Positions 1-24,826 of a DNA stretch of 52,881 bases are shown piece after piece. The notes under the pieces were generated by a model, which was not told the DNA's origin, ran no database searches, and saw only the letters and a list, made by a program, of their open reading frames with translations. Position 1 is the first letter of the stretch, and the number at the start of each line of letters is the position of its first letter. The stretch comes from a virus (Duplodnaviria; Caudoviricetes), in the IMG/VR virus record IMGVR_UViG_3300020446_000014, positions 1 through 52,881 of that record; one strand, given 5' to 3'. The translations under genes were made by a program, and so were the position numbers.

Positions 1-3000
1 ATAAGCCGGGAAAGACAAATCTCACATCACCGGGTGCGGATGTGAAGGATCCTGCAGCACCCGATACGGATTCCAAGTCGGAAGATGGTTCTTTGGAATA
101 TACAGGTTCTGAACCTTTTAAAGATTTTAAAGAAAAAAAATCAGTAATAACAGAAGAAGGTGAAGCAGAATTAAGACAACTTGGAGATGGTGAATTTCAA
201 CCTATTGAGCTAGAAGAGGTTGTTGTTGAAGGAGTAGACAAAACAAAAATAAGAGAAGCTAAAGAAAGAGACGCTAGAATTAAAGCTATTTCTAGTATAT
301 CAAAAATTCCTGAATTAGGTGTTTCAGTTTCAGCAGGAGTTGCAGCAACAACTTTAGATATAACAAAAGGATTTTTAGAATTAATAGATAAATATGGATC
401 AGTACCAGTTACTAATGCTATTGGTAAAGCTTTAGGGTATGACGCGACTCTTAAAGAAGATTTACAATTAAGTGCTGATAACTATGCTGCTTTTGATGAA
501 GTAACTAATTTGTTTAGAAATTATACTATTAAAAAGTTTGATGAAAAGGGCAATGAAATTGATATAGTAGGTTTACTTAAGAAAGGTGATTACGAAAATG
601 CAGCAGATTTGTCAATAAGTGAAGGTTTTAGTGCTGCACCTTATTTAGCTTTAAGTATAATAAGTCCTATTTACGGGAGTGCTTTAATTGGCGCATCTGT
701 TACCGGCCAAGAAATAGCAACAGCATTAAAAGAAAGACCTGAAGAGTCTTTATTAAAGTTATATGGAGCATCTGCTTTAAAAGGAGGTGTTGAATTTGCA
801 ACTAATGCTATAGGCGGTGGTTTACAAAGAGGATTTTTAGGAATTGGTAAAACATTAAATATAGGCACAAATGCTTATAAAAAAGCAGCAAAAGAGTTTA
901 CTAAAACTTATATGGGTAAATTTGCCTCGTCAGCAGCTGGATTAACTAAATCAGGCGCAGTAAATTTTATAGAAGAATTTTCTGCTGAAATTGGCAATTC
1001 ATTAGTTGACAATTTTGTTTATGGTGATAAACAAGAGTTTTATGCTGAAATAAGAAAAGCAACTAACGCTGGATTTGCAGGACTTGTATTAGGAGCCCCA
1101 ATAGGTGGTATTGGTGGGTTTAACTCTATAGCATCTAAAAATGAAGCTTTAAAATTTATTGCCCCTGCACAATGGAGAAAAGATTATGGCAAGTTAAGAT
1201 ATAGATTAAGTCAAGTTGAAGTAGATTTACAAAACGCACCAGAAAATAAAAAACAAAAATTTACAAAACAAAAAAGAAAGATAGAGTCTCTTATGAAAAT
1301 GAGAGAACAGCAATTAGCTGAATCTTTTAATAATTTGACTAAAAAAGAAAAGAAAACATATCTTGAAAATCTTAAAATTATTGATGATGCATTTGGCGAA
1401 ATTAATAATGATAGATACACTGATGCGCAACAATTAGAAGCTAAAGAAAGATTAGATAGAGCCGCTGCTGAAAATCAAATTTTAGTTGGACAAGAATTTG
1501 CTAATGCTGATGAAGAAATAGCATTAAGAATTATTGCAAGAGAAATAAGAAGTTCTGAAATAATAAAAGAATCACTTAAAAAAGCAAACGCTGCAGGTAT
1601 AAAAGATTTAGAAATAAAATTTGCTACTTCTGAAGATCTTAATAATCCAAGATTAGAAGGATTAAAAACAAGTGAAGGTGTTTATGATTCTAAAACTAAA
1701 ACTATATATATAAATCAAGCTATTGCTAATGAAGCTGAGCAAACAAATGTTATAGGCCATGAACTTTTGCATTATATTATGGCTCAAAAATTTGCTGTAG
1801 ATGATGCCTCTTTAGAACCTTTAGTTAATTCATTTAAAGAATATCTTAAAAAAACACAGCCTAGAATTTATGAAAAAATACAACAGCGAATTGATGAGTA
1901 TTATAGTGAAATAAATGAGGCGGGTGAAAAAGTAATTAAACAAGGAGCTCTGGAAGAATATTTTAATGTATTTTCTGATCTTGTTTCTAAAGAAAAAGTA
2001 ATTGTTAATGAAAGCTTCTCTGATAAAATAAAAAATACAACAAAAAGATTTTTAAATAGTCAAGGCTTTGGAAGTGTTGAATTAAATACAGGAAAAGAAG
2101 TTTTTGATTTTATAAGAAATTATACAAAAAATATTAAAAATTTTAACTTTAAACAATTAGGGGTAGATTTAAAATCTTCAGAAATACCTAAAAAGGTACA
2201 GGAAACAGTTAATGAAGAACAAACAAAGTTTTCTAAATCAGGAGCTTCAGAAAGAGTACAAGAAATATATGAATCTCAAGGTGCGGCTAATGCTTTAGAT
2301 ATAATAGATCAGTTTAAACCTATAACAAATAAAATAGTAAACAGATATAAAGATGTACCTGGTTTTGAATTTGAATTATTAAGAGATGAAATAGAAACAG
2401 GTAAAAGAGGTATACTTGACATGATAATGGATTACACACCTGAAAAAGCAAAAGGTGCTCCATTAGCTGCTTATATAAATAGCTTATTACCAAAAAGAGC
2501 TATTGAAGCGGCAAACCGTATATTAGACACTGAATTTAAACTTGATGTTACAGAGGCTAAAAGTGTTACTGATACAACAACAGAAGAAGTAACAGAAATA
2601 CAAGAACAAGAAACATCTGAAGAATTAAAAAGTTTACGCAAAAAAATGGGTATTGGTGATGAAATAATACCTATTGTTTTTGGAGCTGTTCAAAAAACTT
2701 TTGGCACCAAACTACCTGATATTGATGAAAAAACCTTTAAAAAAGAATTAGAAAAAAGATATAGAACAGAACTTAAAAAGCCTATTTCTAAATTATTTGG
2801 TAAAGGAGAAGCATATGAATCTTTTTTACGCGATAATTTTGAAACAATATATAATTCATTACCTCAATCTATATTTAATAAAAGATTAAAAGAATTTGCT
2901 GAGCCTGTATTAGATGAAGATGGAAAACAAAAAAGAGAAAAAACAGCTGAGGGTAATAAAATATTTACTAAGAAAAAAATATCTAAAGCTGAGTTTATAA

Positions 3001-6000
3001 AATATTTTTTAGGCAGCGACGTAGGAAGATCTACACAAGGTACAAGAAAAACAGCAATAGTAGAAGCTGTAGCAGAAGCATTTGCATTCGATGCTACCAT
3101 GGAAGTTTTATCTGATCCTGCAATTTTACAGAAAGCTGAAGATATAGCTGAATTACAAGGCAAAAAATTACCTGAAAATTTTTTAAATAAATTAAGCGAA
3201 ATAATTGATAGACCTATTAATCTTAAATTTTCTATATCTTTATCTAAAGCAATGGGATTAGAAAGCAAAGATGCTTTTTCTTATACAAACTTTAACGACG
3301 TTAATTTAGGTAGAATAGGTTATGTAGATTTATCAGAAAAAATGATAGCTGCTTATGGTATTCAAGAATTTGTAAATATTATTGATCCTCTTGTTGGCAG
3401 ACAATATAAAAGTAAAAAAGACCCTAGAGGAATTAGTGTAGCTAAAGGTATATCTGTTACAGAAGAAGAATTTAAAAAATATGAAAACGTATTTTTTGTA
3501 AGAAGTAAAATTGATGATAAATATAGAACAGCACAATTTTTAACATTAGGTAGAAAAGATTTTTACGAAAATATTTTAGCTAAAGCTATTAATAAAAAAG
3601 TAGTTTGGACTGGTAGAAGATTAATAATTGATGGTAAAGTAATTGAAAGACAAACGGTTCCACCTCAACAACCTACTAGTAAAGGAAATTATCCTGGTTT
3701 TGAAAATAAAGAAGGATGGGATGCTACTATGCCTGAAAGAGTAAATTTTGCAACAGATCAAAGAAGAGGGTTTAAAAAAATTGTAGATATGTTAAGCCTT
3801 ATATATAATAACTCAGATAAAACAAGAAATGAAGTAGCTAAAATAGGTATGATATTAAATAGTTTTAATTCAAGCACCGATGCTTTAGTTAGAACAGCTG
3901 CTATTCCTGGATTAGAAATGAGAGTTGAGGGATTAAAAAGTGATGAATATAGATACGAGCATACACAACCAGCATCTGAAACTTTAAGACAATTAGCAAA
4001 ATTAATTGTTGGAAATGAAAAAGCTCAGTCATTTGATGAAATAATGGAAAACTTTAGAGTTGCTATAATACCTAAAACATATGATGCAATTATAAATAAA
4101 ACAAAAGCTGACGGAAAAACATTACAAAGTAACTCCCCTTTAGATAGTGATGGTAATTTAATAAAACCTTCTGATCCAACTAAGCCCACAAGATATGTAG
4201 CAGCTGAAAAAGAAATTGCAGATGCTGGATTACCTCCTTTAATTTTAGAAGATTCACAATTAAAATATTCTAGATCATTAAGTAAAGAATTTAATAAATT
4301 ATTAGAACAAACTACAGGAGTTCCATTTTACGAAAAGTTTTCACCTGTTAAAGCTACAATGATGGGAAGGGGTAAAGGTAAAAAATTCTTTATACCTTAT
4401 TCAGCAGATGACTTTGTAGGTTTATTATATGCGACATTAGGCACTAAAAAGCAAGGCGGTAATGAACAAATGAAATGGTATCAAGAAAATTTACTTAGAC
4501 CATTTTCTCGCGGTATACAACAATATGAAACTGCAAAACAAGTTGCATTACGTAATTGGCAAGTTCTTAAGAAAGAAGCTAAAAAAAATGTACCTGGTGG
4601 TTTAAATAAAGTCAATGAAACCGGATTTACAAATCAAAATTCATTAAGAGTTTATATGTGGCGTAAACAAGGTATAAAAGATAAAGATATACCTGGAATA
4701 AGCTCGCAAGAATTAAGAGATAATAGTAGAATAGTAAGAAATAATCCTAAGCTAAAAGCTTTTGCTGAAAGATTAATGGCTTTAAACCCTGAAGGTTATC
4801 CTCCGCCATCTACAGAATGGATAGCTGGTGATATTACTACTGATTTAGTTTCTTATATAAATGATGTAAAGAGAGCTGAATATTTAACTCAATGGAAAGA
4901 AAATGTTGATCAAATATTTAATGATCAAAATAAAAACAAGTTAAAAGCATTATACGGTGAATCATATATTAAAGCATTAGAAAACATGCTTTATAGAATG
5001 GAAAAGGGTAGAAATAAATTTAAAGATGCTAGCGATATTGAAAGAAAGTTTCAAACATGGACTAACAATTCTGTAGGTACTATAATGTTCTTTAACGCTA
5101 GGTCTGCTGTACTGCAAACATTATCTGCTGTTAACTTTATAAACTTTAGTGATAATAATCCAATTGCTGCGGGTATAGCATTAGCTAATTTTCCGCAGTA
5201 TGTAAAAGATTTTTCAACATTATTTAATTCAGACTTTTTAAAACAAAGACGTTCTGGTTTACAAACTGATGTAAATGCTGATGAAATTGCAAAAGCAGCA
5301 GCTACATCTAAAAACCAAGTACAAGCAATGCTTGCTGCAATACTTAAGTTTGGATTTACACCAACACAAATTGCTGACTCATTTGCTATTGCTTCAGGTG
5401 GTGCTACGTTTTATAGAAACAGAATAAACAAATACAAAAAAGAAGGATTAAGTCAAAAAGAAGCAGAACAAAAAGCATTTACAGACTTTCAAGAAATAGC
5501 AGAAGAAACACAACAGTCTGCTAGGCCTGATAGAATATCTATGCAACAAGCAGGTTCATTAGGTAGACTTGTATTAGCATTTGGTAACACTCCAATGCAA
5601 TATGCAAGGCTTACAAAAAAGGCTACATTAGATTTAATTAATGGAAGAGGAGATTGGAAGACAAATATAAGTAAGATTGCGTATTATAGTGTAATACAGA
5701 ATATTATATTCTCCGCTTTACAACAAGGACTATTTGCACTGCTATTTGATGATGAAGAAGAAGATGATAAGAAAGCAAGATATTATAGAATAGGTAATAG
5801 TAGTGCTGATACATTATTAAGAGGTATGGGGGTTTATGGTGCTGCCGCGGCAACAGTTAAGAATATGATTATCAAGATAGTAGAAGAAGCTAAAAAATCT
5901 AGGCCTGATTATACTAAAGTTGCAATAGAAGCAACAGCCATATCACCGCCTATAAACTCTAAATTAAGAAAACTTGTTTCAGCTGGTAAAACATTTACAT

Positions 6001-6314
6001 ATAAGCAATCAAAAGAAAAAGTATTTACAGAAGGATTTAGTTTAGATAATCCAGCTTTTTTAGCCGCTGGAAAAGTAATTTCTGCTGGAACTAATTTACC
6101 CGCTGACCGTATAGTTTTAAAAATGGATCACATATATACAGCAATGCAACCTGAAACAGAACTTTGGCAAGGTACTGCATTAATGCTTGGATGGGGTGAA
6201 TGGGAATTAGGTATGATAGAAAAGCAAACCAAAAAAGAAAGTAAAGCAAAGTCCTTTTTGAAAACAAAAAAATTAAAAAGTGGTTTAAAAAGAAAAAAAT
6301 TAAAAACAAAATGA
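1..6314 (+). CDS. Giant multidomain virion/ejection (polyvalent) protein, 5'-truncated; zincin metallopeptidase, sigma70 region-2-like segment, EHxxP nuclease-like segment, helical C-terminal domain
   Basis: Frame is open from the window edge (KPGKTNLTSPGADVK before the GTG at 42). GVYD..TKTIYIN..VIGHELLH zincin motif at 1758-1772 with downstream EE. Sigma-like stretch at 2301-2525. Lies at the end of the structural operon. Confidence 0.75.
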   Translation, partial: KPGKTNLTSPGADVKDPAAPDTDSKSEDGSLEYTGSEPFKDFKEKKSVITEEGEAELRQLGDGEFQPIELEEVVVEGVDKTKIREAKERDARIKAISSISKIPELGVSVSAGVAATTLDITKGFLELIDKYGSVPVTNAIGKALGYDATLKEDLQLSADNYAAFDEVTNLFRNYTIKKFDEKGNEIDIVGLLKKGDYENAADLSISEGFSAAPYLALSIISPIYGSALIGASVTGQEIATALKERPEESLLKLYGASALKGGVEFATNAIGGGLQRGFLGIGKTLNIGTNAYKKAAKEFTKTYMGKFASSAAGLTKSGAVNFIEEFSAEIGNSLVDNFVYGDKQEFYAEIRKATNAGFAGLVLGAPIGGIGGFNSIASKNEALKFIAPAQWRKDYGKLRYRLSQVEVDLQNAPENKKQKFTKQKRKIESLMKMREQQLAESFNNLTKKEKKTYLENLKIIDDAFGEINNDRYTDAQQLEAKERLDRAAAENQILVGQEFANADEEIALRIIAREIRSSEIIKESLKKANAAGIKDLEIKFATSEDLNNPRLEGLKTSEGVYDSKTKTIYINQAIANEAEQTNVIGHELLHYIMAQKFAVDDASLEPLVNSFKEYLKKTQPRIYEKIQQRIDEYYSEINEAGEKVIKQGALEEYFNVFSDLVSKEKVIVNESFSDKIKNTTKRFLNSQGFGSVELNTGKEVFDFIRNYTKNIKNFNFKQLGVDLKSSEIPKKVQETVNEEQTKFSKSGASERVQEIYESQGAANALDIIDQFKPITNKIVNRYKDVPGFEFELLRDEIETGKRGILDMIMDYTPEKAKGAPLAAYINSLLPKRAIEAANRILDTEFKLDVTEAKSVTDTTTEEVTEIQEQETSEELKSLRKKMGIGDEIIPIVFGAVQKTFGTKLPDIDEKTFKKELEKRYRTELKKPISKLFGKGEAYESFLRDNFETIYNSLPQSIFNKRLKEFAEPVLDEDGKQKREKTAEGNKIFTKKKISKAEFIKYFLGSDVGRSTQGTRKTAIVEAVAEAFAFDATMEVLSDPAILQKAEDIAELQGKKLPENFLNKLSEIIDRPINLKFSISLSKAMGLESKDAFSYTNFNDVNLGRIGYVDLSEKMIAAYGIQEFVNIIDPLVGRQYKSKKDPRGISVAKGISVTEEEFKKYENVFFVRSKIDDKYRTAQFLTLGRKDFYENILAKAINKKVVWTGRRLIIDGKVIERQTVPPQQPTSKGNYPGFENKEGWDATMPERVNFATDQRRGFKKIVDMLSLIYNNSDKTRNEVAKIGMILNSFNSSTDALVRTAAIPGLEMRVEGLKSDEYRYEHTQPASETLRQLAKLIVGNEKAQSFDEIMENFRVAIIPKTYDAIINKTKADGKTLQSNSPLDSDGNLIKPSDPTKPTRYVAAEKEIADAGLPPLILEDSQLKYSRSLSKEFNKLLEQTTGVPFYEKFSPVKATMMGRGKGKKFFIPYSADDFVGLLYATLGTKKQGGNEQMKWYQENLLRPFSRGIQQYETAKQVALRNWQVLKKEAKKNVPGGLNKVNETGFTNQNSLRVYMWRKQGIKDKDIPGISSQELRDNSRIVRNNPKLKAFAERLMALNPEGYPPPSTEWIAGDITTDLVSYINDVKRAEYLTQWKENVDQIFNDQNKNKLKALYGESYIKALENMLYRMEKGRNKFKDASDIERKFQTWTNNSVGTIMFFNARSAVLQTLSAVNFINFSDNNPIAAGIALANFPQYVKDFSTLFNSDFLKQRRSGLQTDVNADEIAKAAATSKNQVQAMLAAILKFGFTPTQIADSFAIASGGATFYRNRINKYKKEGLSQKEAEQKAFTDFQEIAEETQQSARPDRISMQQAGSLGRLVLAFGNTPMQYARLTKKATLDLINGRGDWKTNISKIAYYSVIQNIIFSALQQGLFALLFDDEEEDDKKARYYRIGNSSADTLLRGMGVYGAAAATVKNMIIKIVEEAKKSRPDYTKVAIEATAISPPINSKLRKLVSAGKTFTYKQSKEKVFTEGFSLDNPAFLAAGKVISAGTNLPADRIVLKMDHIYTAMQPETELWQGTALMLGWGEWELGMIEKQTKKESKAKSFLKTKKLKSGLKRKKLKTK

Positions 6315-7754: not shown

Positions 7755-9686
7755 ATGCCAGAAAAATATGAATTGTTCTTAGATAAGAATAAAAAAGTAA
7801 AACTTGCCGCGAATGACCAAGGTGATTTTTTTGCAGAAGCAAACGGCAATAGAATTAAACTAGGGGAACAAGGCCTACAAACAATTAATAAAACAACAGG
7901 AGCTCCAGAAAGTGTTGGAGGCGCTCCAGACCCTAATCAAATAATACGAACTATTACTGGAGTTGAACAAAACGCATTTGGTGAAGATTCAGGTAGAACA
8001 ACATTTACTCATACCTCTTTACCTGGAGAAACTTTAATCGGATGGTATGCTCAAGCAAATAGTGGTAATTCACCAAGATTATTTCTTACAATAAACCCAG
8101 CTCTTAATAACTCCGGTACTCTTTCAGCTCCCGATGGAACTATAGTTTATGGAGGTAATAATGGTCCTTTCAAAATATCACTAAAAATAAATGGTAATGT
8201 TTATGGCCCAATGCGTATGAATTTGAATAATGCTTCTTGGTACAACGCTTCTCAAATAGCTTTTTCAGTACCTGCTCATGATCAAATTGTAATACAGTAC
8301 GCTCACCAAGATGTTTCAAATTTTTCTGCTATGGAAGCTGATTTATTAGCTGTTGCAAATACTACAGAATTAGCAGGTGCAGGACCAAATGATGCTTTTT
8401 CTAATGGATTTAGTCAAAGACAAGGAGGTATATATGGTCTTCCTTTATCTGCTGATATACAACTATATATAGTAGAAGACATAGATGTTACAACACCAAT
8501 TAAATTTAGTGAAACAACTAATTTTATTAAAAAGTTATCAATTGTAACAGATAATGAAGCTGAACAATTATTTAAAACAACAGATGATTTTAGTACTAAA
8601 ACACCATATTCTTCAGGAGATCAAAGATGGAATCATCAAGCAATGGCTTTAGATAATGTGTTACAAGTTAGTGGTGTAAAAGCAGGTGGTCTTTACAAAG
8701 TTCAGAGTTGGGGTGCTAATTTTAATAATGTTAATGAGATATTTACAAATAATAATACTCATGAGTTTCTAGGTATTGAAATAGAATTTGATAGATACAC
8801 AGATGAAAGCACGTATGGAATCACATATGTAGATCTTTTAATGGGTATGGAAGGTTTTTTAAATGCTAATCAATCCGGTAAAAAACATTTAATATTTTAT
8901 TCTAAAAATCATTCTCAGTATAATGGATCTGGCCCTGGTGAATATTTTATGTATACATTATATGGACAAGATAATGCACCTAACACTGGATCACAAAATT
9001 CACAAGGATTAGCTTATAGTGTTGATCCTAATGGAAGCGGAGGTTATGGTGTTGAATATCCTATGGAAACTTATTATCCTGGAAGAGGACATAGACTTAG
9101 GTTAGAAATTAATGGGAATGGCTATATGTATGGTTATCCTCTTGATAGAGGAGTTGACAAAAATCCAGGTTATGGTAGATTTGGACAATATGGTATTCCC
9201 GGAAATATAGTTAATATTGATTTAAGAGCACAAATTACAGGAAAAATGGGAGATCAGGATGCTAATGCTAATCCTTATATGTATAATGATTATTCAACTG
9301 GTAATCATATAAATATTAAAGTTACTCCTGGCACAAAATATTTTATAACAGATGGAGCTTGGCCTTCAAGTTCAGCTTTTCCTCCTGGCCAAGTAATAGG
9401 TGTAATTCTTGATTGCGCGTATCTAAAACAAGGTGATGAATTTGGTTTTGCTTTTGATCATTTAGGTAACGGGACAAATTTATGGCCGGGTCAAACAAAT
9501 TATAATGTTAATATAGTATTTGCTTTTGGTAATAATGGTTACCAAATGTGGCAGGGATATAGACCCAATTTCGGAGGTTCTGCAGATTTTAGAATGACTA
9601 TTTCTGAAACATCAGGAATAGTTGTATGGAATCAATTAAATGGAGGTACTTATTCTACTGCAACAATGAATACAGCATTAATATAA
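7755..9686 (+). CDS. Putative tail fibre/spike (receptor-binding) protein
   Basis: 643 aa, Gly/Asn/Tyr-rich and beta-like; flanked by chaperone-like genes. Confidence 0.55.
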   Translation: MPEKYELFLDKNKKVKLAANDQGDFFAEANGNRIKLGEQGLQTINKTTGAPESVGGAPDPNQIIRTITGVEQNAFGEDSGRTTFTHTSLPGETLIGWYAQANSGNSPRLFLTINPALNNSGTLSAPDGTIVYGGNNGPFKISLKINGNVYGPMRMNLNNASWYNASQIAFSVPAHDQIVIQYAHQDVSNFSAMEADLLAVANTTELAGAGPNDAFSNGFSQRQGGIYGLPLSADIQLYIVEDIDVTTPIKFSETTNFIKKLSIVTDNEAEQLFKTTDDFSTKTPYSSGDQRWNHQAMALDNVLQVSGVKAGGLYKVQSWGANFNNVNEIFTNNNTHEFLGIEIEFDRYTDESTYGITYVDLLMGMEGFLNANQSGKKHLIFYSKNHSQYNGSGPGEYFMYTLYGQDNAPNTGSQNSQGLAYSVDPNGSGGYGVEYPMETYYPGRGHRLRLEINGNGYMYGYPLDRGVDKNPGYGRFGQYGIPGNIVNIDLRAQITGKMGDQDANANPYMYNDYSTGNHINIKVTPGTKYFITDGAWPSSSAFPPGQVIGVILDCAYLKQGDEFGFAFDHLGNGTNLWPGQTNYNVNIVFAFGNNGYQMWQGYRPNFGGSADFRMTISETSGIVVWNQLNGGTYSTATMNTALI

Positions 9687-9718
9687 CAAATAAATAACAC
9701 AATAAATAACACAAAAGA

Positions 9719-10786
9719 ATGCCAGATAATAATAAGATAATTTTAGGTACAAATGATGATACTTATATTGCTGCAGATGATGCAGGAAATATAATATTAC
9801 AACACGAGGGAGGAAATAGAGTTTCTATGTCCAATACCTCTATAACTCCTGCTAGTAATGAGCAGATAGACTTAGGGTCTTCAACAAATAAATTTAGAGA
9901 TTTATATATATCTTCTAATTCTTTATTTGTAGGAAATACAAAAATATCAGCTGATCCAACTACGGGCGAATTAACTTCTGCTGTAGCAAATAATCAAGGA
10001 GTATTTGGAGCACCAGCAGCAATTGGAGGCGCTGATACTAGTAATTTAAATAATCCACAAGAAACATTGCTAGCTGTATGGAAGGGAGGAACTGCTTTAG
10101 GAGGAGATAATCCAACTACATTTCAGTTTGAAAATAATGCTGGAACGAATATTCCTAGCCCAATTATAGGTCATGCAACCGGTACAATAAATGGACCTGG
10201 AGGAATAGCTATTAATCATCCACTGCTTCAAACAAGAGTGCGATATGGTTCTAGTTATACTAATGTACCACTAGGAAATGCTACGCTTAAACTTAAAAAT
10301 AAAGGAAATATTCCATCTGGACAATTTATGTATGATGATGGTAATACTCCTAGTACTCCTGGTTATAGTATAAATCCTAATTTTGATCATTTAAAATTAG
10401 TTTATTATGAAGAAGGAATGGAAGGAGGATTTCCATTTTCAGGAACACCCACATATAATTATTACTGGAGAGTATTAGATGCAAACGGAAATGATGTTAA
10501 TTTATGGGATGGAGTTGATTTTTTCGCTTATAGTCCATTAGCTAATTTACAGTTTGGTCACAACTCAGATCCAGGTGGTTGGGGATTCCTAGATGTAGTT
10601 GTTAGAAATGCGACTGATCCTACTTGGGAATTGTATGAATCAACTAATCAAGTTGAAATTGAAGGAAGTATAAAAATTAAAGGAGAACCATATTCTAGTC
10701 AAGGAGTATTAATAAAAGACAACGCTGGTAGTTATAGAAGAATAACAGTAGATACAGTAGGTAATGTAAGTAGTGTATTAGTATAA
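9719..10786 (+). CDS. Putative tail fibre protein
   Basis: IDLGSSTNKFRDLY fibre-type motif; C-terminal RRITVDTVGN motif. Confidence 0.65.
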   Translation: MPDNNKIILGTNDDTYIAADDAGNIILQHEGGNRVSMSNTSITPASNEQIDLGSSTNKFRDLYISSNSLFVGNTKISADPTTGELTSAVANNQGVFGAPAAIGGADTSNLNNPQETLLAVWKGGTALGGDNPTTFQFENNAGTNIPSPIIGHATGTINGPGGIAINHPLLQTRVRYGSSYTNVPLGNATLKLKNKGNIPSGQFMYDDGNTPSTPGYSINPNFDHLKLVYYEEGMEGGFPFSGTPTYNYYWRVLDANGNDVNLWDGVDFFAYSPLANLQFGHNSDPGGWGFLDVVVRNATDPTWELYESTNQVEIEGSIKIKGEPYSSQGVLIKDNAGSYRRITVDTVGNVSSVLV

Positions 10787-11041: not shown

Positions 11042-11067
11042 AAGGGGCTTTGCGGCCCCTTTTTTTT
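11042..11067. terminator. Intrinsic terminator between convergent operons
   Basis: AAGGGGC-TTTGCG-GCCCCTT followed by a T run, at the junction of the + structural and - nrdA units. Confidence 0.85.
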
Positions 11068-12808
11068 ATCCATCACACGATATGCAATCAGGATTCATAG
11101 CGTTTGCGGCTATATCACCGCGAAGTACAGATTCTGTTCTCATATAATATAAGGTTTTTATACCTCGTTTCCATGCTTCTAAATGTACTTTATTAATCCA
11201 TTTAGGTTCAGCAACAGAAGGAAACGCTAAATTTAAACTTACAGATTGATCTATATAATCTTGTCTTATACCTGCTTGACCTATTAATTCTAATTGATTT
11301 ATTTCTTTAAATGTTTTAAATACATTTTTTACAGGCTCACCATCTTCTTCGGTAAGTCTTCCTGAGTGATCGTAATACCATCCATCGAGTTTTTTAATTC
11401 CTTGAACGGATCCACCGTCTTCCAAAATTTTATCCCAAGTTTCTTTATTGTCGATTCCAATTTTTCTTAATATTTTTTTAAGTTCTTTATTTTTTCTAAT
11501 AAATGTTCCCTTAGCTGATTGTTCAGTAAACACATTAGCCGCCCAAGGTTCAATACCAGGTGATACATTACCCGATAGCTTACTATTTGAAACCGTTGGA
11601 GCTATTGATCTTAAATGTGTATTTCTAAAACCTGTACCAACACACCATAAAGGTTCACCATATATTTCAGCTAAAGCTCTTGAAGCTCTTTCAGTTTCAA
11701 TTTTTATTTTTGAAAATATTTCCCGCGTTTTGAATTGCGCTAATAAACCTTCGAAAGCTATTCCCTTTTTCTGTAATAGGCTGTGCCACCCAAGGACACC
11801 TAATCCAAGTGCCCTCCCTTTTTCCGCACTGCGTACAGAGTTCTCGAATCCCTTCATATTCTTTGCTCGTTGAATAAATTCTTCCAGCACACCGTCCAGG
11901 AACCAAGTTGCGTCGTAAATTAAATTCGTATTCTTCCATTCGTCGTATTTATCTAAATTTAAAGATGACAAGCAACAAACAAATGAATGTGACTCGTCAG
12001 TATGTAATGTTATTTCACTACATATGTTTGTCATATGAACTTTAAGTCCATTTGACTTATACGCTTTTGGGTTACTTTTGTTTGTATTTCCCTTAAATAA
12101 GATATAAGGTTCTCCAGTTGCTTTACGTTTCTGGAGTAGCTTACCCCACTTTCTTCTAGCGTCTTTATCTCCTCTATCAAGTTTTCGCATAAACTTGTCG
12201 CCGACCACAGCGCACTGGTGGAGATTGAGGGATTGTCTATTGACATCGCCTTTCGGTTCTCTGATCTCCAACCATTCTTCAAAGTCGGAATGATCAATAT
12301 TGATATTAACTGATGCAGCTCCTCTGCGGACAGATCCTTGATTAGTGGCGAGTATTGTTGAATCATAGATTTTGCAAAAAGGCACCACGCCGTCACTTGT
12401 TCCATTACCTGTAATTTTAGCTCCAGCGGGTCTAATCATATTAACTCCTATTCCAACACCGCCGCCATGCTTGGCTAAGAGCATCATTTCTAAATTTTTA
12501 TTCCCTATATCTTGTATACTATCTGCAACATCAATACCAAAACAACTAATAGGCAAACCTCTGTCTGTGCCTGTATTAGACAACACTGGTGAAGCTAAAC
12601 ACAACCAACCATCCCATATGTACTGGAAAAATTTATCGGCCATTTCAGGCTTATATAAACGCCTCGCAACAGTTTTTGCAACACGCATATACGCTTCTTT
12701 AGGTGACTCACCGTTGTATAAATAACCACCAGCTATTGTTTTTTTATAGACATCTGTATCTCCCCATACAGGATAGTCTTCACCTTTTTTCCAGTTACTA
12801 TTCCACAT
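11066..12808 (-). CDS. nrdA: Ribonucleotide reductase class I alpha subunit (short, no ATP cone)
   Basis: PISCF, TNICSEI, IAPTVSNS, KTLYY motifs and C-terminal CISC pair. Confidence 0.95.
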   Translation of the reverse strand: MWNSNWKKGEDYPVWGDTDVYKKTIAGGYLYNGESPKEAYMRVAKTVARRLYKPEMADKFFQYIWDGWLCLASPVLSNTGTDRGLPISCFGIDVADSIQDIGNKNLEMMLLAKHGGGVGIGVNMIRPAGAKITGNGTSDGVVPFCKIYDSTILATNQGSVRRGAASVNINIDHSDFEEWLEIREPKGDVNRQSLNLHQCAVVGDKFMRKLDRGDKDARRKWGKLLQKRKATGEPYILFKGNTNKSNPKAYKSNGLKVHMTNICSEITLHTDESHSFVCCLSSLNLDKYDEWKNTNLIYDATWFLDGVLEEFIQRAKNMKGFENSVRSAEKGRALGLGVLGWHSLLQKKGIAFEGLLAQFKTREIFSKIKIETERASRALAEIYGEPLWCVGTGFRNTHLRSIAPTVSNSKLSGNVSPGIEPWAANVFTEQSAKGTFIRKNKELKKILRKIGIDNKETWDKILEDGGSVQGIKKLDGWYYDHSGRLTEEDGEPVKNVFKTFKEINQLELIGQAGIRQDYIDQSVSLNLAFPSVAEPKWINKVHLEAWKRGIKTLYYMRTESVLRGDIAANAMNPDCISCDG

Positions 12809-13016
12809 TAGTTTTTTTCTTTTTATTATTCATTTCTTTCGAAATATCTTTCTGTAAATCTTCCAGTGCTTTTTCGTACCCGTCAAATTTCTTCACTAGG
12901 CTCATCGTCCCAATAGATAAATCTCTGAGATTGTTCATTTCGTTTATTATTTGTTGTACGTTTTGGCCCAGAACTTCTATCCTGTTCCACATTTCTATTA
13001 GTTTGCTTTCTTTCAT
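12798..13016 (-). CDS. Hypothetical coiled-coil protein
   Basis: 72-aa ORF coupled to both neighbours. Confidence 0.65.
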   Translation of the reverse strand: MKESKLIEMWNRIEVLGQNVQQIINEMNNLRDLSIGTMSLVKKFDGYEKALEDLQKDISKEMNNKKKKTNVE

Positions 13017-13276
13017 TATGCATTAAAATAATATATTATATAACCTATTATAACGTTTAAATTAACTATTACTAAATTCCATTGCTTAGCCAACCAAACT
13101 TGTGGTAATGCTAATGCTCCACCTATTATATAGGTGTAAATACCCATATCACCATAAGAAAGTAAATATGGAGACATCATAATAAACGCTGCCCCCATAT
13201 ACCCTAATCTATTAGATAATCTTTCTAACGGTGAAAGTCTACGAGGCTTTACTAGATTTTTTAAGTATTTTTTCAT
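13016..13276 (-). CDS. Small 3-TM membrane protein (possible PnuC/PQ-loop-like half transporter)
   Basis: Three hydrophobic segments and an ALPQV motif. Confidence 0.55.
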   Translation of the reverse strand: MKKYLKNLVKPRRLSPLERLSNRLGYMGAAFIMMSPYLLSYGDMGIYTYIIGGALALPQVWLAKQWNLVIVNLNVIIGYIIYYFNA

Positions 13277-13385
13277 TATTTAAATAAGGATAAAGATGTT
13301 CTTTTTCCCAATGCATTCTGTATTCATAACCATCAGGAAATTGTTCATCACATTGACTACATTTAATTATATTTTTTTTTACCAT
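13239..13385 (-). CDS. 48-aa C2H2 zinc-finger protein, not in the ORF track
   Basis: MVKKNIIKCSQCDEQFPDGYEYRMHWEKEH...: C-x2-C-x3-F-x5-Y-x2-H-x4-H; start overlaps the nrdB stop. Confidence 0.65.
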   Translation of the reverse strand: MVKKNIIKCSQCDEQFPDGYEYRMHWEKEHLYPYLNNEKILKKSSKAS

Positions 13386-14347
13386 ATATCCTCAAAATCT
13401 TCTCCTTCGTTTGCTTTAGAATAATCAGTAGGCCTAACTGCAAAGAAATCAGTGTGAGTATGACCACCGGTAAGATGATAAAACCAATCGAGATTGCTTG
13501 CTGATTTTTCTTTAAAAGCAAAGTACCCCCCGAGGTCGAGGTAGCCAAGTTCTGATAACTTTTCATTAAGTCTTTTTCTAATAAATTGTTTAAGATCGTC
13601 GGCTTTAAGGTTTTCAATATCACCTTGTTCGAACATTTTATCAATGTATCGCTCTTCTGCTTCAAGCATTGTTTCTGCTGCTTTAATAACATCTTCTCTA
13701 CAATCTTCTAATAATGTTTTATTTTCTTGACACATATGTCTAAATAATTGACAACCCATTCTACTATGTAATGATTCATCTCTTACAGACCATTTCATTT
13801 GTTGTCCAATACCCTTGAGTAAATTACGTAATTGGAAGCTATAAAGAACAGCAAAAGCAGAATAGAGACTAACTCCCTCTGCGAATGCACTAAATATTGC
13901 CAATGATCTACCAATACCCACGGGATCGTTACCATCGTAAGCAACGAGATTATCAAATCTATCAGCCGTTGTCGGCTCATGTAAAAATGCTTCAAAGTTT
14001 TCAAGTCCTAAAGTTTCGTTTAAATAACTATATGCAACCGCATGAATAGTTTCTTGTGATCCAAACATCATTGCCATTTGTTGTATTTCATGCTTCGGAA
14101 ACCATGATACAACTTTTTGTGTCCAGTAATCAGACACCGCACACTCTGTTTGCGCAAAACCCAGTAAAATATTTCCAACCAAGTTTTTCTCTGAGTCTGT
14201 AAGCTTTTCGTTCCAATCCTTGACATCACCTGACATTGGTATCTCGGTATGTAACCAGAACGCTTGAGCTTGTTTAAGCCATCCCTCAGTATAGTATTCG
14301 GGGTATTCAAATGGTTTATACGGTATTCTTTCATCAAATAATCCCAT
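13379..14347 (-). CDS. nrdB: Ribonucleotide reductase class I beta subunit
   Basis: Start reassigned to MGLFDERI (14347); ETIHAVAY, EGVSLYSAF, RDESLH, DFF.VRPTDY motifs. Confidence 0.95.
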   Translation of the reverse strand: MGLFDERIPYKPFEYPEYYTEGWLKQAQAFWLHTEIPMSGDVKDWNEKLTDSEKNLVGNILLGFAQTECAVSDYWTQKVVSWFPKHEIQQMAMMFGSQETIHAVAYSYLNETLGLENFEAFLHEPTTADRFDNLVAYDGNDPVGIGRSLAIFSAFAEGVSLYSAFAVLYSFQLRNLLKGIGQQMKWSVRDESLHSRMGCQLFRHMCQENKTLLEDCREDVIKAAETMLEAEERYIDKMFEQGDIENLKADDLKQFIRKRLNEKLSELGYLDLGGYFAFKEKSASNLDWFYHLTGGHTHTDFFAVRPTDYSKANEGEDFEDIW

Positions 14348-14496
14348 TATATTTTTTCTATTTCTATGCATAAATCTACAAAAGGTAGATAAAACACGTG
14401 TTGTACATAATCTTTTTCTACATAAGATCTCATACCAAGCAATATACCTGGATATAGTCCTATAGTTATTTCCCAATTATCTGGAACTAATCTCAT
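14347..14496 (-). CDS. Hypothetical protein, 49 aa (MRLVPDNWEITIGLYPGILLG...HVFYLPFVD)
   Basis: Complete ORF with TAATG coupling to nrdB; explains the spurious N-terminal extension in the track. Confidence 0.65.
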   Translation of the reverse strand: MRLVPDNWEITIGLYPGILLGMRSYVEKDYVQHVFYLPFVDLCIEIEKI

Positions 14497-14627
14497 TTGC
14501 CTTGACCTTTATAAAGTTTAACATAATTTTTACTGGTTTTTAATTTAGATGTTTTGCTTTTAGCGTGCACACCTTTTCTTTTTATTTTCTTTTTTTGTGT
14601 ATAATTACTTATTATATTTTTAGCCAT
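14493..14627 (-). CDS. Small Lys-rich protein, 44 aa, ending KLYKGQGK
   Basis: MAKNIISNYTQKKKIKRKGVHAKSKTSKLKTSKNYVKLYKGQGK; ATGA overlap with the next gene. Confidence 0.65.
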   Translation of the reverse strand: MAKNIISNYTQKKKIKRKGVHAKSKTSKLKTSKNYVKLYKGQGK

Positions 14628-14793
14628 AACATTTTATATTATACTGATCATGTATTTCAACAAGTTCTTTATATTTTAAATACCCTCTGTTCTCAATCGT
14701 CCATTTAATCCATTTTTCTATCTGGCGATTGGCATAATGCTTTCTAGCTATTTGTTTCGCATCTCCTTTATTATGCCTATTACTCTGTCGCAT
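14620..14793 (-). CDS. Hypothetical protein, 57 aa
   Basis: MRQSNRHNKGDAKQIARKHYANRQIEKWIKW...; fills the gap and overlaps the 3' end of the nuclease gene. Confidence 0.45.
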   Translation of the reverse strand: MRQSNRHNKGDAKQIARKHYANRQIEKWIKWTIENRGYLKYKELVEIHDQYNIKCYG

Positions 14794-15197
14794 TCTTTTT
14801 GATTTTGTGGTTTAAATAAAACGTAATCAGGAAATTGTTCAGAAACTAATCTTTTAAATAATTTCCATCTTATAGGAAACGATTCATTTGCTCTACCTTT
14901 TGTTTCTATTATAAAGTCGTCTCCTATAAAATCTGGTGTATATTTTATAGGTAATATTCTTTTACCTCCTCTATTAACTAATTCACCCTTTCCATTGGCT
15001 TGTCTTTCAAAAGATTGATTAGCTAAATGAAAACCGTTTATTAAAACAAATGTTTCACCTTCGTATTTAGCTTTTATCTTATGTTTTTTTAAAGCCATAT
15101 ACATATAGCGCTCAAGACCAGAAGCAAAGTTAACACCATCATAAGATATTTTCTTTGCTGTTACTGGACCTCTTTTTCTTTTAATTTTCTTGCGCAT
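14748..15197 (-). CDS. PD-(D/E)XK endonuclease (T7 endonuclease I/DUF1064-like resolvase)
   Basis: FASGLE, YTPDF and IIETKG motifs. Confidence 0.85.
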   Translation of the reverse strand: MRKKIKRKRGPVTAKKISYDGVNFASGLERYMYMALKKHKIKAKYEGETFVLINGFHLANQSFERQANGKGELVNRGGKRILPIKYTPDFIGDDFIIETKGRANESFPIRWKLFKRLVSEQFPDYVLFKPQNQKECDRVIGIIKEMRNK

Positions 15198-15408
15198 CCC
15201 TTACATAACATTCTTCAATCTCATCACGTAAAACCATTCGTGCTTTTTCAAGATAGTTAACAGCATCCATAAGTTCTTCTTGTAGGTGCTGTAGCCATGT
15301 GTCTAGTGGTTGCTCATCATCAGCTAAAGTAACTTTATATTTTTTATAGCCAACGTCAGAACGTGATTTAATTTTATTAATTACTTGTTCAATTATTCTA
15401 TCTCTCAT
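15181..15408 (-). CDS. Small all-alpha protein, possibly NTP-pyrophosphatase-related
   Basis: GYKKY..TL...WLQHLQEELMDA..YLEK motif. Confidence 0.6.
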   Translation of the reverse strand: MRDRIIEQVINKIKSRSDVGYKKYKVTLADDEQPLDTWLQHLQEELMDAVNYLEKARMVLRDEIEECYVRDAQEN

Positions 15409-16187: not shown

Positions 16188-16587
16188 ATTTAGCTACAAC
16201 AAAAATTGACTCAGCGTTTTCAGATATTCCAAATCCAACTTTACTTATATCAGGATAAATCATTTGGTAAAATGGAACTCTATTGTCATCTTCTGATAAT
16301 GTCCAGTGAACTACTGCATCTAATATATAATTAACTTGTTGATTATAATATTCTTTATCTAAAGCATATATAGTTTCACCATATAAATCATCTTCGTGAG
16401 TGAAATTATTAGTTGCTGCTATATGATTTGCCCAAGCTTGTGCTTTGTTAGATAATTCTTTATCATAAGATAGTAAATCTAAATTATAATAACTTCTTAT
16501 ATTGTTTTGAAAATTTAACGCAGTAAAATATTCTACCTGCGCATTTATAAAAATTGGAAATAATAAAATTAAAATTAGTTTTTTCAT
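16168..16587 (-). CDS. Exported CAP/SCP-domain protein
   Basis: Signal peptide MKKLILILLFPIFINA; N..R...L..L.YD.EL...AQ.WA, GET, KVGFG and VVAKY motifs. Confidence 0.75.
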   Translation of the reverse strand: MKKLILILLFPIFINAQVEYFTALNFQNNIRSYYNLDLLSYDKELSNKAQAWANHIAATNNFTHEDDLYGETIYALDKEYYNQQVNYILDAVVHWTLSEDDNRVPFYQMIYPDISKVGFGISENAESIFVVAKYDKIYQ

Positions 16588-24733: not shown

Positions 24734-24753
24734 TTTATTTAATTTAAAATTAG

Positions 24754-24826
24754 TTGCGCGGGCAGGATTCGAACCTGCGACCTCAGGGTTATGAGCCCTG
24801 CGAGCTGGCCACTGCTCTACCGCGCT
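24754..24826 (-). tRNA. tRNA-Met(CAT), initiator type; CCA not encoded
   Basis: AGCGCGG acceptor stem with an unpaired 1:72 position, anticodon arm CAGGG-CTCATAA-CCCTG (three G-C pairs), T-arm GCAGG-TTCGAAT-CCTGC. Confidence 0.93.

What the first reader, a model, noticed from the sequence alone, without database searches (positions are those of the whole stretch)
1680..4277. Possible self-processing polyprotein: zincin protease followed by three K[FY]SxS boundary motifs
Seen: HELLH at 1758-1772 with downstream EE, then TKFSKS (K at 2226), LKFSISLSK (3225) and LKYSRSLSK (4263). These divide the rest of the protein into blocks of 333, 346 and about 682 aa that coincide with apparent domain changes. 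Established: zincin metallopeptidase domains are common in phage polyvalent proteins. Inference: the motifs are cleavage sites that release separate effectors during maturation or after injection.
Basis: partly seen in the sequence, partly recalled or inferred. Interest (0 to 1): 0.8.

Follow-up and report, generated by a model that had tools for sequence, protein, structure and literature searches.

The report
Giant phage protein with protease-linked junction motifs
A giant protein of an uncultured marine phage is built from swappable modules joined by a short conserved K-F-S-K-S peptide that disappears together with the protein's built-in zinc protease, which suggests, but does not prove, that the protein cuts itself into separate parts, one of which looks like a bacterial sigma factor domain.

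Summary
HELLH (nt 1758) and three K[FY]SxS motifs (nt 2226, 3225, 4263) lie in one 2103-aa ORF cut by the contig start. Shuffles of the protein give 0.08 such motifs.

The motif is conserved in a very large family of 2000-3000-aa metagenomic viral proteins. It sits where homology between relatives breaks: 26-38% of internal BLAST breakpoints lie within 10 aa of a motif, against 3% for random sites. Its central Ser uses both TCN and AGY codons, so selection acts on the peptide. Motifs 2 and 3 fall in low-confidence linkers of the AlphaFold model; motif 1 is borderline.

Of 14 relatives without HExxH, 12 lack the strict motif at junction 3, with the residues deleted in otherwise conserved alignments.

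The best reading is an embedded gluzincin that cuts at these junctions. This is inferred: no cleavage product was seen. Directly after motif 1 lies a domain with a sigma-factor region-2-like fold (Z 8.3; top 23 rows all sigma). That fits a virion-delivered transcription module, though Pfam and Foldseek do not confirm it.

It is a new variant of the "polyvalent protein" theme.

The parts
3..6314 (+). Giant ORF, 2103 aa plus stop. The 5' end is cut by the contig start, with about 35-40 N-terminal residues missing.
   Evidence: Its first residues align to residues 37-57 onward of the stop-to-stop reading frames of loci L002, L003, L006 and L009. The window is a whole linear viral record.
3..1607 (+). 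N-terminal region, aa 1-535. It is variable among relatives and holds a hydrophobic stretch at aa 211-233.
   Evidence: Coverage by homologues is only 32-89 of 120. Hydropathy. No Pfam or PHROG match.
1608..2207 (+). Zincin (gluzincin-type) metallopeptidase domain, aa ~536-735. HELLH is at nt 1758-1772 and the invariant Glu652 at nt 1956-1958.
   Evidence: H586, E587, H590 and E652 are invariant. Weak Pfam DUF6782 and M78 matches and PHROG 87 metallo-protease. Local fold matches to selecase and jannalysin and to two large zincin toxin folds at Z 5.2-5.6.
2226..2240 (+). Junction motif 1, KFSKS (aa 742-746).
   Evidence: Conserved as K[FLES]S[KR][ST] in many homologues. It lies at a helix break with pLDDT about 55-62, 9 aa after a segment with pLDDT below 50.
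2244..2534 (+). Domain with a sigma-factor region-2-like fold (aa 748-844).
   Evidence: VIA wide search: Z 8.3, rmsd 2.5 A over 85 aa to SigB, and the top 23 rows are all sigma factors. The larger model gave the same at Z 7.6. A profile against PDB gave SigK region 2 as top hit at E 0.073. hhalign aligned it in register to the phage's own sigma factor, but at probability 2%.
2538..2627 (+). Acidic disordered linker (aa 846-875) with no junction motif.
   Evidence: pLDDT below 50 in both models.
2631..3212 (+). Second, mostly helical half of block A (aa 877-1070). Highly conserved; fold not identified.
   Evidence: Many invariant residues in alignment A3. pLDDT 80-90. Only low, unrelated matches.
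3225..3251 (+). Junction motif 2, KFSISLSK (aa 1075-1082), with flanking residues.
   Evidence: F1076 and S1077 are at least 90% conserved. The motif lies at the start of the low-pLDDT segment aa 1073-1106. Homology to most relatives ends here.
3240..4262 (+). Variable cassette B (aa 1080-1420), shared by only about 32-60 of 120 homologues.
   Evidence: No Pfam family. The atlas search gave no named neighbour.
4263..4277 (+). Junction motif 3, KYSRS (aa 1421-1425), followed by LSKEFN.
   Evidence: S1423, L1426, F1430 and N1431 are at least 90% conserved. The motif lies inside the low-pLDDT segment aa 1419-1426. Homology to most relatives resumes here.
4278..6311 (+). Block C (aa 1426-2103), the family-defining C-terminal module. 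It has a hydrophobic stretch at aa 1897-1915 and a Lys-rich tail.
   Evidence: 2524 cluster representatives match with E<=0.001, nearly always at the C-terminus of 2000-3000-aa proteins. Hydropathy and tail. No Pfam match. Atlas leads to LPD38 and LPD39 only.

Best explanation
The ORF encodes a giant, probably virion-associated protein of a Flavobacteriia-type podophage. Its layout is a chain of modules: variable N-terminal region, gluzincin protease, junction 1, sigma-2-like domain plus a conserved helical domain, junction 2, one or more swappable cassettes, junction 3, conserved 680-aa C-terminal module. The junction peptide has the consensus hydrophobic-K-[FYL]-S-[KR]-[ST]-L. I propose it is the recognition and cleavage site of the embedded protease, which cuts the precursor into separate proteins in the capsid or after ejection into the host. 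Shown here: the motif is real, is selected as a peptide, marks the module borders and recombination breakpoints, lies in flexible linkers at two of three sites, and is lost where the protease is lost. Inferred: that the protease is active, that it cuts there, when it cuts, and that the products act separately. From the usual preference of gluzincins for a hydrophobic P1' residue (recalled knowledge), I guess the cut falls between K and F/Y/L.
For: (1) Conservation. The motif recurs at all three junctions in most of 120 homologues, in contexts such as DRxEDFKFSKSL and KFSKSLxKEFN. The family total is 188 K[FY]S.S against 10.1 expected.
(2) Module borders. Coverage drops after aa 1075 and returns at aa 1426. 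HSPs to 23 loci end at q1072-1098 and restart at q1414-1425 in most of them. In L006 the upstream part is 56% identical and block C 96% identical, which is a mosaic. In an all-against-all comparison of 144 proteins, 26.5% of internal HSP starts and 38.3% of internal HSP ends lie within 10 aa of a motif. Random sites give 2.7-2.9%, with a maximum of 4.6%. The peaks are at offsets 0 and +4.
(3) More motifs go with longer cassette regions. The median length is 324, 403, 554, 562 and 725 aa for 0, 1, 2, 3 and 4 internal motifs, in 133 proteins.
(4) Selection on the peptide. The central Ser is TCN 46 times and AGY 27 times across loci.
(5) Structure. Motifs 2 and 3 lie in segments with pLDDT below 50.
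(6) Link to the protease. HExxH and E652 are invariant where the domain is present. In the first set, 141 of 144 proteins have HExxH, and the 3 without it have no motif, with the motif residues deleted at all three junctions while the flanks align. L039, from a distant lineage, also lacks both. Among 133 proteins with both junctions located, all 9 without HExxH lack [KRQ][FYWL]S at junctions 2 and 3. In 254 proteins, the counts for (HExxH, strict motif 3) are (1,1) 153, (1,0) 87, (0,0) 12 and (0,1) 2. Of 14 independent pairs, 6-8 go the same way and 0 the other way, with median p 0.016.
(7) Lineage-specific variants appear at both junctions of the same protein: KAS/KAS in 4, QFS/QFS in 6, KRS/KRS in 1. 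The residue after K is the same at junctions 2 and 3 in 64 of 114, against a permutation mean of 55.9 and maximum of 63.
(8) Prior art. Autoprocessing by zincin domains has been predicted for phage polyvalent proteins (PMC5512222, passages read).
Against: No cleavage product or mature N-terminus was seen; everything is comparative. Motif 1 is not in a clearly disordered segment. The longest disordered linker, aa 846-875, has no motif. P0301 (2594 aa) has no HExxH and no zincin HMM hit, yet keeps 4 strict motifs. P0316 and P0279 keep ASK-type variants without HExxH. 87 of 240 HExxH-bearing proteins lack the strict motif at junction 3 (36 of 240 by the looser pattern), and L074, L075 and L078 have HExxH but no motif there. 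With the looser motif definition the pair test is weaker: 9-10 the same way, 2 the other way, p about 0.065. The block C tree over-counts independent losses, because block C recombines separately from the upstream part; 8 of the zincin-less proteins share the same block A end. At junction 3 the S-K-S-L part runs straight into the conserved start of block C, so part of its conservation could belong to that domain. The zincin matches Pfam models only below their cut-offs.
Confidence: 0.5

Rival explanations
1. The junction peptides are conserved linkers or docking elements that are not cut. They might be contact points for the zincin-like domain, the capsid interior or the portal, or N-caps of the following modules. 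The protein then acts as one long chain.
For: At junction 3 the motif is continuous with the conserved start of block C (SLxKEFN). Motif 1 sits at the edge of a helix. Known large virion proteins with a C-terminal zincin are transferred full-length, according to passages of PMC5512222. Many zincin-bearing relatives have degenerate motifs.
Against: The catalytic HExxH...E is invariant. The core is precisely deleted when the protease is absent, while the flanks stay conserved.
Confidence: 0.22
2. The motifs are cleavage sites, but for another protease: a phage head-maturation protease or a host enzyme. The embedded zincin would then act on host targets.
For: Head proteases that trim packaged proteins at short motifs are well known (T4 and phiKZ; recalled knowledge). 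PMC5512222 also considers zincin domains as effectors against host proteins.
Against: No other real ORF of the window's structural module carries the motif. No protease gene was recognised between portal and capsid genes; the 419-aa ORF there has no PHROG or Pfam match, though the genome is only 83% complete. Loss of the motif tracks loss of the embedded zincin.
Confidence: 0.12
3. The motifs are only footprints of recombination: short conserved DNA stretches where cassettes are exchanged, with no role as peptides.
For: Homology breakpoints pile up at the motifs, and the protein is mosaic.
Against: The central Ser switches between TCN (46) and AGY (27) codons, and Lys and Phe codons vary too, also between junctions of one gene. 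So the DNA is not conserved but the peptide is. 15 bases is also very short for homologous exchange.
Confidence: 0.05

Closest known systems
Polyvalent proteins of phages and conjugative elements with zincin-like metallopeptidase domains (Iyer, Burroughs, Anand, de Souza, Aravind 2017, PMC5512222; abstract and passages read)
   Same: A giant multi-domain phage protein in the virion gene block, with an embedded HExxH zincin and disparate, shuffled modules. Autoprocessing by the zincin was predicted there. One relative's cassette weakly matches ART-PolyVal (22.5 bits, below the cut-off of 31.2).
   Different: None of the passages shown by my two term searches of that paper describes a conserved junction or cleavage motif; I did not read the whole text. 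The word 'sigma' occurs 0 times in it. The window's protein matches no LPD, MuF or other polyvalent Pfam family; the atlas hints to LPD38 and LPD39 are leads only. The paper's supplementary files could not be seen.
MARTX toxins: effector modules released by an internal cysteine protease domain cutting in linkers (recalled knowledge, no call)
   Same: It works alike if the reading is right: one huge precursor, a built-in protease, short linker sites between modules, and a mosaic, recombining set of cargo modules.
   Different: The protease class differs (Cys versus zinc), as do the site, the delivery route (type I secretion into eukaryotic cells) and the organism. There is no sequence or fold relation.
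Packaged head proteins trimmed at short consensus sites (T4 internal proteins by gp21; phiKZ inner-body proteins by gp175; recalled knowledge, no call)
   Same: Virion-packaged proteins processed at short recurring motifs.
   Different: There the protease is a separate head-maturation enzyme that also cuts capsid proteins. Here the motif is confined to one protein and tracks an embedded zincin.
Virion-delivered transcription machinery such as the phage N4 virion RNA polymerase (abstract of PMC13492108 seen in the listing; passages of PMC5512222)
   Same: A giant virion protein that would bring a transcription function into the cell with the DNA.
   Different: Here it is not a polymerase but a domain with a sigma region-2-like fold. 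Its function is untested, and the phage also encodes an ordinary sigma factor at 20980-21723.
Minigluzincins (selecase, jannalysin) and larger zincin folds
   Same: HExxH plus a downstream Glu. Local Foldseek matches: 4qhf prob 0.77 and 4jix prob 0.60. VIA Z 5.2-5.6 over model residues 21-246 to two large zincin toxin structures.
   Different: All matches are weak (E about 1; Z below 6). No family HMM passes its cut-off.

Membership tests
Zincin / gluzincin metallopeptidase | HExxH zinc-binding and catalytic motif | tested here: met
   HELLH at aa 586-590. H, E and H are invariant in 68 sequences and in 20 sequences.
Zincin / gluzincin metallopeptidase | Third zinc ligand Glu downstream of HExxH | tested here: met
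   E652, in the motif EEY[FL]T.FSD, is invariant in 20 of 20. Its role as a ligand is inferred, not seen.
Zincin / gluzincin metallopeptidase | Match to a curated family model above its cut-off | tested here: not met
   DUF6782 scores 18.8 bits (cut-off 27) and Peptidase_M78 18.3 bits (cut-off 22). PHROG 87 'metallo-protease' has E 6e-6.
Zincin / gluzincin metallopeptidase | Zincin fold | tested here: inconclusive
   Selecase 4qhf prob 0.77 and jannalysin 4jix prob 0.60, both with E about 1. VIA Z 5.2-5.6 to two large zincins. The domain was not folded alone.
Zincin / gluzincin metallopeptidase | Proteolytic activity | not testable with these tools
   Needs expression of the wild type against an E587A mutant.
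Polyvalent proteins (Iyer et al. 2017) | Several unrelated domains in one polypeptide of a phage or mobile element | tested here: met
   Zincin, sigma-2-like domain, variable cassettes and block C lie in one ORF. The context is phage structural genes.
Polyvalent proteins (Iyer et al. 2017) | Presence of domains catalogued for the class (LPDs, MuF, ART-PolyVal and others) | tested here: inconclusive
   None in the window's protein. ART-PolyVal scores 22.5 bits (cut-off 31.2) in a cassette of relative L060. The atlas's nearest named clusters are LPD39 (28% of members) and LPD38, at scores 0.93-0.95.
Polyvalent proteins (Iyer et al. 2017) | Packaged in the virion and delivered with the DNA | not testable with these tools
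   Only position speaks for it. The gene follows the virion structural genes. It is syntenic with the 3694-aa 'structural protein' gp18 of Flavobacterium phage Elemovirus (depositor's label). That protein shares weak similarity with N-terminal parts of some homologues (E 1e-13).
Sigma-70 family (for aa 748-844) | Fold of sigma domain 2 | tested here: met
   Z 8.3, rmsd 2.5 A, 85 aa aligned to SigB. The top 23 rows are all sigma factors and cover the whole domain. The 981-aa model gave the same at Z 7.6. Caveat from the tool: a Z below 8-13 for helical domains may reflect only a common arrangement.
Sigma-70 family (for aa 748-844) | Match to Sigma70_r2 sequence models | tested here: not met
   0 of 21 block A sequences match at E<=5. 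A profile against PDB gave SigK region 2 as top hit at E 0.073, but a smaller profile did not. hhalign to the phage's own sigma factor gave probability 2%. Foldseek on pdb and BFVD gave no match with E<=0.001, only weak sigma rows.
Sigma-70 family (for aa 748-844) | A region-4 (-35 binding) domain | tested here: inconclusive
   The second half of block A (aa 877-1070) gave no sigma-4 match, but that part was barely tested.
Sigma-70 family (for aa 748-844) | Binding to RNA polymerase core and promoter recognition | not testable with these tools
   Needs pull-down and in vitro transcription.
Self-processing polyprotein | Embedded protease with intact catalytic residues | tested here: met
Self-processing polyprotein | Short conserved motif at module borders | tested here: met
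Self-processing polyprotein | Sites in exposed, flexible linkers | tested here: inconclusive
   Motifs 2 and 3 lie in segments with pLDDT below 50. Motif 1 is at pLDDT about 55-62, at a helix break.
Self-processing polyprotein | Sites and protease occur together | tested here: met
   12 of 14 HExxH-less proteins lack the strict motif at junction 3. The exceptions are P0301 and the N-terminally truncated entry P0365. All 9 of 9 lack it at junctions 2 and 3. Independence of the losses is uncertain.
Self-processing polyprotein | Observed cleavage products | not testable with these tools
   No proteomic data are at hand, and no cultured relative was found.

The most novel reading that the evidence does not exclude
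A widespread family of marine podophages packs a MARTX-like 'cargo train' into the virion. It would be a giant precursor whose own zinc protease cuts at K-F-S-K-S junctions after entry. That would free a sigma-factor-like module, which captures the host RNA polymerase for the first phage genes, together with freely exchangeable effector cassettes. This would be a way to jump-start transcription that differs from the virion RNA polymerases of N4-like and crAss-like phages. It would also be the first defined cleavage code for polyvalent proteins.
Probability: 0.2. Interest if true: 0.85.

Novelty: new variant of a known kind. Interest (0 to 1): 0.68.

Why it matters
Giant multi-domain 'polyvalent' phage proteins are common, and their processing by embedded zincins has so far been only a prediction without a known site. 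This report gives a concrete, testable site: a five-residue junction motif whose presence tracks the protease across a family of more than 2500 sequence clusters. If confirmed, the motif would let unknown cassettes in such proteins be delimited automatically. It would also explain how modules are swapped without breaking the protein, and it would give a handle for finding new anti-host effectors. The sigma-2-like module directly behind the first junction raises the possibility that some phages deliver a sigma-like factor with their DNA.

Tried and rejected
- **Stand-alone block C genes.** The atlas and the length-restricted search listed many 670-730-aa entries, several starting exactly at the motif, e.g. 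P0168 'MQFSR...'. The DNA shows that P0168 is an internal piece of a 2439-aa ORF (L044). 34 of the 37 related loci hold reading frames of 2033 aa or more; two of the others are cut by an end of their contig (L048, L070). L051 has a stop 26 aa upstream of the match. So there is no evidence for gene fission at the junction.
- **DNA-level recombination signal.** Rejected on codon variation.
- **General head-protease site.** No motif occurs in other structural ORFs.
- **Protease-peptide docking.** Complex prediction on the zincin domain plus the 38-aa junction 2 peptide plus Zn gave 'no answer' (score 0.07 against a mark of 0.32). This is evidence neither way.
- **Family searches.** Pfam on 20 variable cassettes found only DUF6934 in 2 of 20. 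Pfam on the zincin-less, motif-bearing P0301, P0279 and P0316 found nothing useful. Pfam on 8 further cassettes found only the sub-threshold ART-PolyVal and DUF7659.
- **HAD-like cassette.** A DxDxT...YFADDA signature that I noticed before junction 3 in many relatives was not confirmed by Pfam.
- **Fold searches.** Foldseek on the 981-aa model gave no match with E<=0.001, as did the block A model against pdb and BFVD. The atlas search on cassette B gave no named neighbour.
- **Cultured relatives.** tblastn of the whole protein against 50,697 phage records gave no match.
- **Literature.** 'KFSKS' occurs in 8 papers, of which the 7 listed concern tRNA synthetases and other unrelated topics. The search 'sigma factor + virion + ejected + bacteriophage + polyprotein' found 23 papers; none of the 15 listed titles and abstract openings concerns a virion-delivered sigma factor. 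'vB_FspP + Flavobacterium' gave 2 unrelated papers.
- **Clustering of cassette regions.** Single linkage merged 125 of 133, so it gave no count of cassette types.
- **Tool problems.** A larger alignment for block A failed internally, so the 21-row alignment A3 was folded instead.

Full report
**What the window is.** The window is a whole linear viral record of 52,881 bases, estimated 83% complete, with about 31% G+C. Its + strand carries a head and virion module:
- large terminase (41482-43689)
- portal (43691-46114)
- a 419-aa ORF without matches
- a capsid-type 'virion structural protein' (47426-48859)
- further structural proteins, up to the 3' end of the contig.

The portal is 42% identical to that of Flavobacterium podophages of the genus Elemovirus; Cellulophaga, Tenacibaculum and Maribacter phages match too. 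In Elemovirus the same gene order ends with a 3694-aa 'structural protein', gp18 (depositor's label). The ORF under study (3..6314, + strand, 2103 aa) starts at the contig edge. Its first residues align to residues 37-57 onward of the stop-to-stop reading frames of related loci, so roughly 35-40 residues are missing. It therefore sits where a giant virion protein is expected. Virion association is nonetheless inferred from position alone.

**The observation.**
- HELLH is at nt 1758-1772 (aa 586-590).
- EE is at aa 651-652.
- K742 is at nt 2226, K1075 at nt 3225 and K1421 at nt 4263.
- The blocks are 333, 346 and 683 aa.

Three K[FY]S.S in this protein compare with a mean of 0.079 in 3000 shuffles; 1 of 3000 reached three. 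In a six-frame scan, no other real ORF of the window carries the motif except ORF 20980-21723(-). That ORF is a sigma factor in which 'RKFS' is part of region 2.1, so the match is chance.

**The family.** A search with aa 560-1460 found 548 proteins with E<=0.001 among 7992 scored candidates. The 120 listed are almost all 2000-2600 aa long and come from metagenomes. A full scan with block C (aa 1421-2103) found 2524 cluster representatives with E<=0.001, and the match lies nearly always at the C-terminus of 2000-3000-aa proteins. No relative is among 50,697 deposited phage records. Pfam and PHROGs recognise only a weak metallopeptidase signal around HELLH.

**The motif marks module borders.**
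- Coverage: about 118 of 120 homologues cover aa 576-1075. Coverage falls to 32-40 directly after aa 1075 and returns to about 110 at aa 1426.
- Loci: against 23 viral loci, most alignments end at query residues 1072-1098 and restart at 1414-1425.
- Mosaicism: in L006 the zincin and block A part is 56% identical, while block C is 96% identical.
- Breakpoints: in an all-against-all comparison of 144 proteins, 26.5% of 30,528 internal alignment starts and 38.3% of 18,124 internal ends lie within 10 residues of a motif. Randomly placed sites give 2.7-2.9%, with a maximum of 4.6% in 50 trials. The peaks sit exactly at the first and last residue of the motif.
- Extra copies: relatives with longer variable regions carry extra copies of the motif inside them. 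Median lengths are 324, 403, 554, 562 and 725 aa for 0, 1, 2, 3 and 4 internal copies, in 133 proteins.
- Consensus: over 387 sites the motif is hydrophobic-K(89%)-F/L/Y-S(100% by definition)-K(76%)-S/T-L.

**It is a peptide signal, not a DNA signal.** Across the loci the central serine is encoded by TCT or TCA 46 times and by AGT or AGC 27 times. Lys and Phe/Leu codons vary as well, also between junctions of one gene.

**Structure.** An AlphaFold2 model of aa 480-1460 (68-row alignment, mean pLDDT 71) has low-confidence segments at aa 1073-1106 and at aa 1419-1426. Motif 2 starts at aa 1075 and motif 3 at aa 1421, so both lie in these segments. Motif 1 (aa 742-746) lies at a break between two helices, at pLDDT about 55-62. 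It is nine residues after a segment with pLDDT below 50 (aa 720-733), so it is borderline. Another long disordered, acidic stretch (aa 846-875) has no motif.

**The protease.** H586, E587 and H590 are invariant in 68 sequences. In 20 aligned domains, E652 is invariant too, within EEY[FL]T.FSD, 62 residues after the HExxH. That is the gluzincin pattern. Local fold matches are weak: selecase prob 0.77 and jannalysin prob 0.60, and Z 5.2-5.6 to two large zincin structures.

**The link between protease and motif.**
- In the first 144 proteins, 141 have HExxH. The three that lack it (L016, L018, L022) have no motif at all.
- Their alignments show the motif residues deleted or replaced at all three junctions, while the flanks stay conserved. 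Examples are 'KEAK-----KVNEIY' at junction 1, 'IDRAINYLDNL' at junction 2 and 'PTKP--------SLDKQFN' at junction 3.
- L039 is a 2280-aa ORF from a distant lineage. It also lacks both, whereas its relatives L035-L038 have HEVGH and a lineage-specific variant (I/V-K-R-S) at junctions 2 and 3.
- Among 133 proteins in which both junctions could be located, all 9 without HExxH lack [KRQ][FYWL]S at junctions 2 and 3.
- Among 254 proteins of at least 1800 aa, the counts for (HExxH, strict motif at junction 3) are (1,1) 153, (1,0) 87, (0,0) 12 and (0,1) 2.
- On a FastTree of block C, 14 independent pairs differ in HExxH. The motif goes the same way in 6-8 and the other way in 0 (median p 0.016). With a looser motif pattern the result is 9-10 against 2 (p about 0.065).

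Caveats on this link:
- Block C recombines independently of the upstream part, so 14 is an over-count. Eight of the zincin-less proteins share one type of block A end.
- P0365, one of the two exceptions, is an N-terminally truncated entry.
- P0301 is a true exception, with 4 strict motifs and no detectable zincin. P0316 and P0279 keep ASK-type variants.
- Many zincin-bearing proteins have a degenerate junction 3 (87 of 240 by the strict pattern).

Unusual variants tend to occur at both junctions of the same protein. KAS/KAS occurs in 4, QFS/QFS in 6 and KRS/KRS in 1. The residue after K is the same at junctions 2 and 3 in 64 of 114, against a permutation mean of 55.9 and a maximum of 63. Relatedness inflates this figure.

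**What the modules are.** Right after motif 1, aa 748-844 form a helical domain. Its best structural matches, in a search of 48,161 representative chains, are sigma-factor domain 2. The 981-aa model gave Z 7.6. A separate 323-aa model (pLDDT 78.6) gave Z 8.3, rmsd 2.5 A over 85 residues to S. aureus SigB, with the top 23 rows all sigma factors and the whole domain covered.

Sequence evidence for this is thin:
- A whole-family profile had SigK region 2 as its best PDB hit, at E 0.073, but a smaller profile did not.
- 0 of 21 block A sequences match Pfam Sigma70_r2.
- hhalign to the phage's own sigma factor aligns the regions in register, but at 2% probability.
- Foldseek gives only weak sigma rows.

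I therefore call it a sigma-2-like fold and not a member of the family. The second half of block A (aa 877-1070) is strongly conserved, but its fold is unidentified. Cassette B (aa 1080-1420) matches nothing. One relative's cassette weakly matches ART-PolyVal. Block C has one hydrophobic stretch and a Lys-rich tail, and the whole protein has no cysteine.

**Mechanism proposed.**
- Shown: the anatomy, the conservation, the border position, the linker location of two sites, and the co-loss with the protease.
- Inferred: that the zincin is active and cuts at the junctions, and that the pieces act separately.
- Inferred from recalled knowledge that gluzincins favour a hydrophobic P1' residue: that the cut may fall between K and F/Y/L.
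- Unknown: whether this happens in the head or after ejection.

**Comparison with what is known.** Passages of the polyvalent-protein paper (PMC5512222) predict autoprocessing by zincin domains. The passages shown by my two term searches give no site motif, and the word 'sigma' occurs 0 times in the text. Functionally, the nearest analogy is the MARTX toxin layout (recalled). Packaged proteins trimmed by T4 or phiKZ head proteases differ in having a separate protease (recalled). A literature search for 'KFSKS' found only unrelated papers among those listed.

**Verdict.** I rate it a new variant of a known kind, with interest 0.68.

Noticed in passing
window 20980-21723 (-): A 247-aa phage sigma-70-family factor. 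PHROG 351 has E 2e-21. Pfam Sigma70_r2 scores 25.1 bits (cut-off 24) and r4 scores 23.6 bits (cut-off 24.1). No phage RNA polymerase was recognised among the 20 ORFs scanned, so the phage probably redirects the host polymerase.
   Followed up: partly
window 2244-2534 (+): Directly after junction motif 1 lies a domain with a sigma region-2-like fold (Z 8.3; the top 23 rows are all sigma factors). The word 'sigma' occurs 0 times in the polyvalent-protein paper.
   Followed up: yes
window 35916-37466 (+): A GroEL-type chaperonin gene (PHROG 5725, E 1e-133). The related Elemovirus record has a GroES gene before its terminase.
   Followed up: no
window 3-6314 (+): The 2103-aa protein has no cysteine at all. 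It has only two hydrophobic stretches (aa 211-233 and 1897-1915) and ends in a Lys-rich tail.
   Followed up: no
window 1-3 and 51347-52879: Both contig ends lie inside genes: the giant ORF at the 5' end and a PHROG 14478 virion protein at the 3' end. The reading frames do not join directly across the ends, so DNA is missing between them.
   Followed up: partly
window 11066-19367 (-): A nucleotide-metabolism and replication block: ribonucleotide reductase large and small subunits, MazG-like pyrophosphatase, thymidylate synthase and primase/helicase. A tRNA-Met lies at 24753-24826 (-).
   Followed up: no
L044 (match at 8001-10019) and protein P0168: Database entries that look like stand-alone 670-700-aa block C proteins starting at the motif are fragments. 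The sequence identical to P0168 lies inside a 2439-aa ORF.
   Followed up: yes
L060:6801-8030: The cassette just before junction 3 in this relative weakly matches ART-PolyVal, the ADP-ribosyltransferase of polyvalent proteins (E 2e-4; 22.5 bits, below the cut-off of 31.2).
   Followed up: no
L025 18719-29803 (Elemovirus gp18): The syntenic 3694-aa 'structural protein' of a cultured Flavobacterium phage has one HExxH (HEIFH) and none of the junction motifs. It shares only weak similarity (E 1e-13) with N-terminal parts of some family members.
   Followed up: partly
L051 (match at 8001-9989): In this locus the reading frame is closed by a stop 26 aa upstream of junction 3, whereas its close relative L050 has a 2456-aa frame. 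It may be a sequencing error, a pseudogene or a rare split.
   Followed up: no
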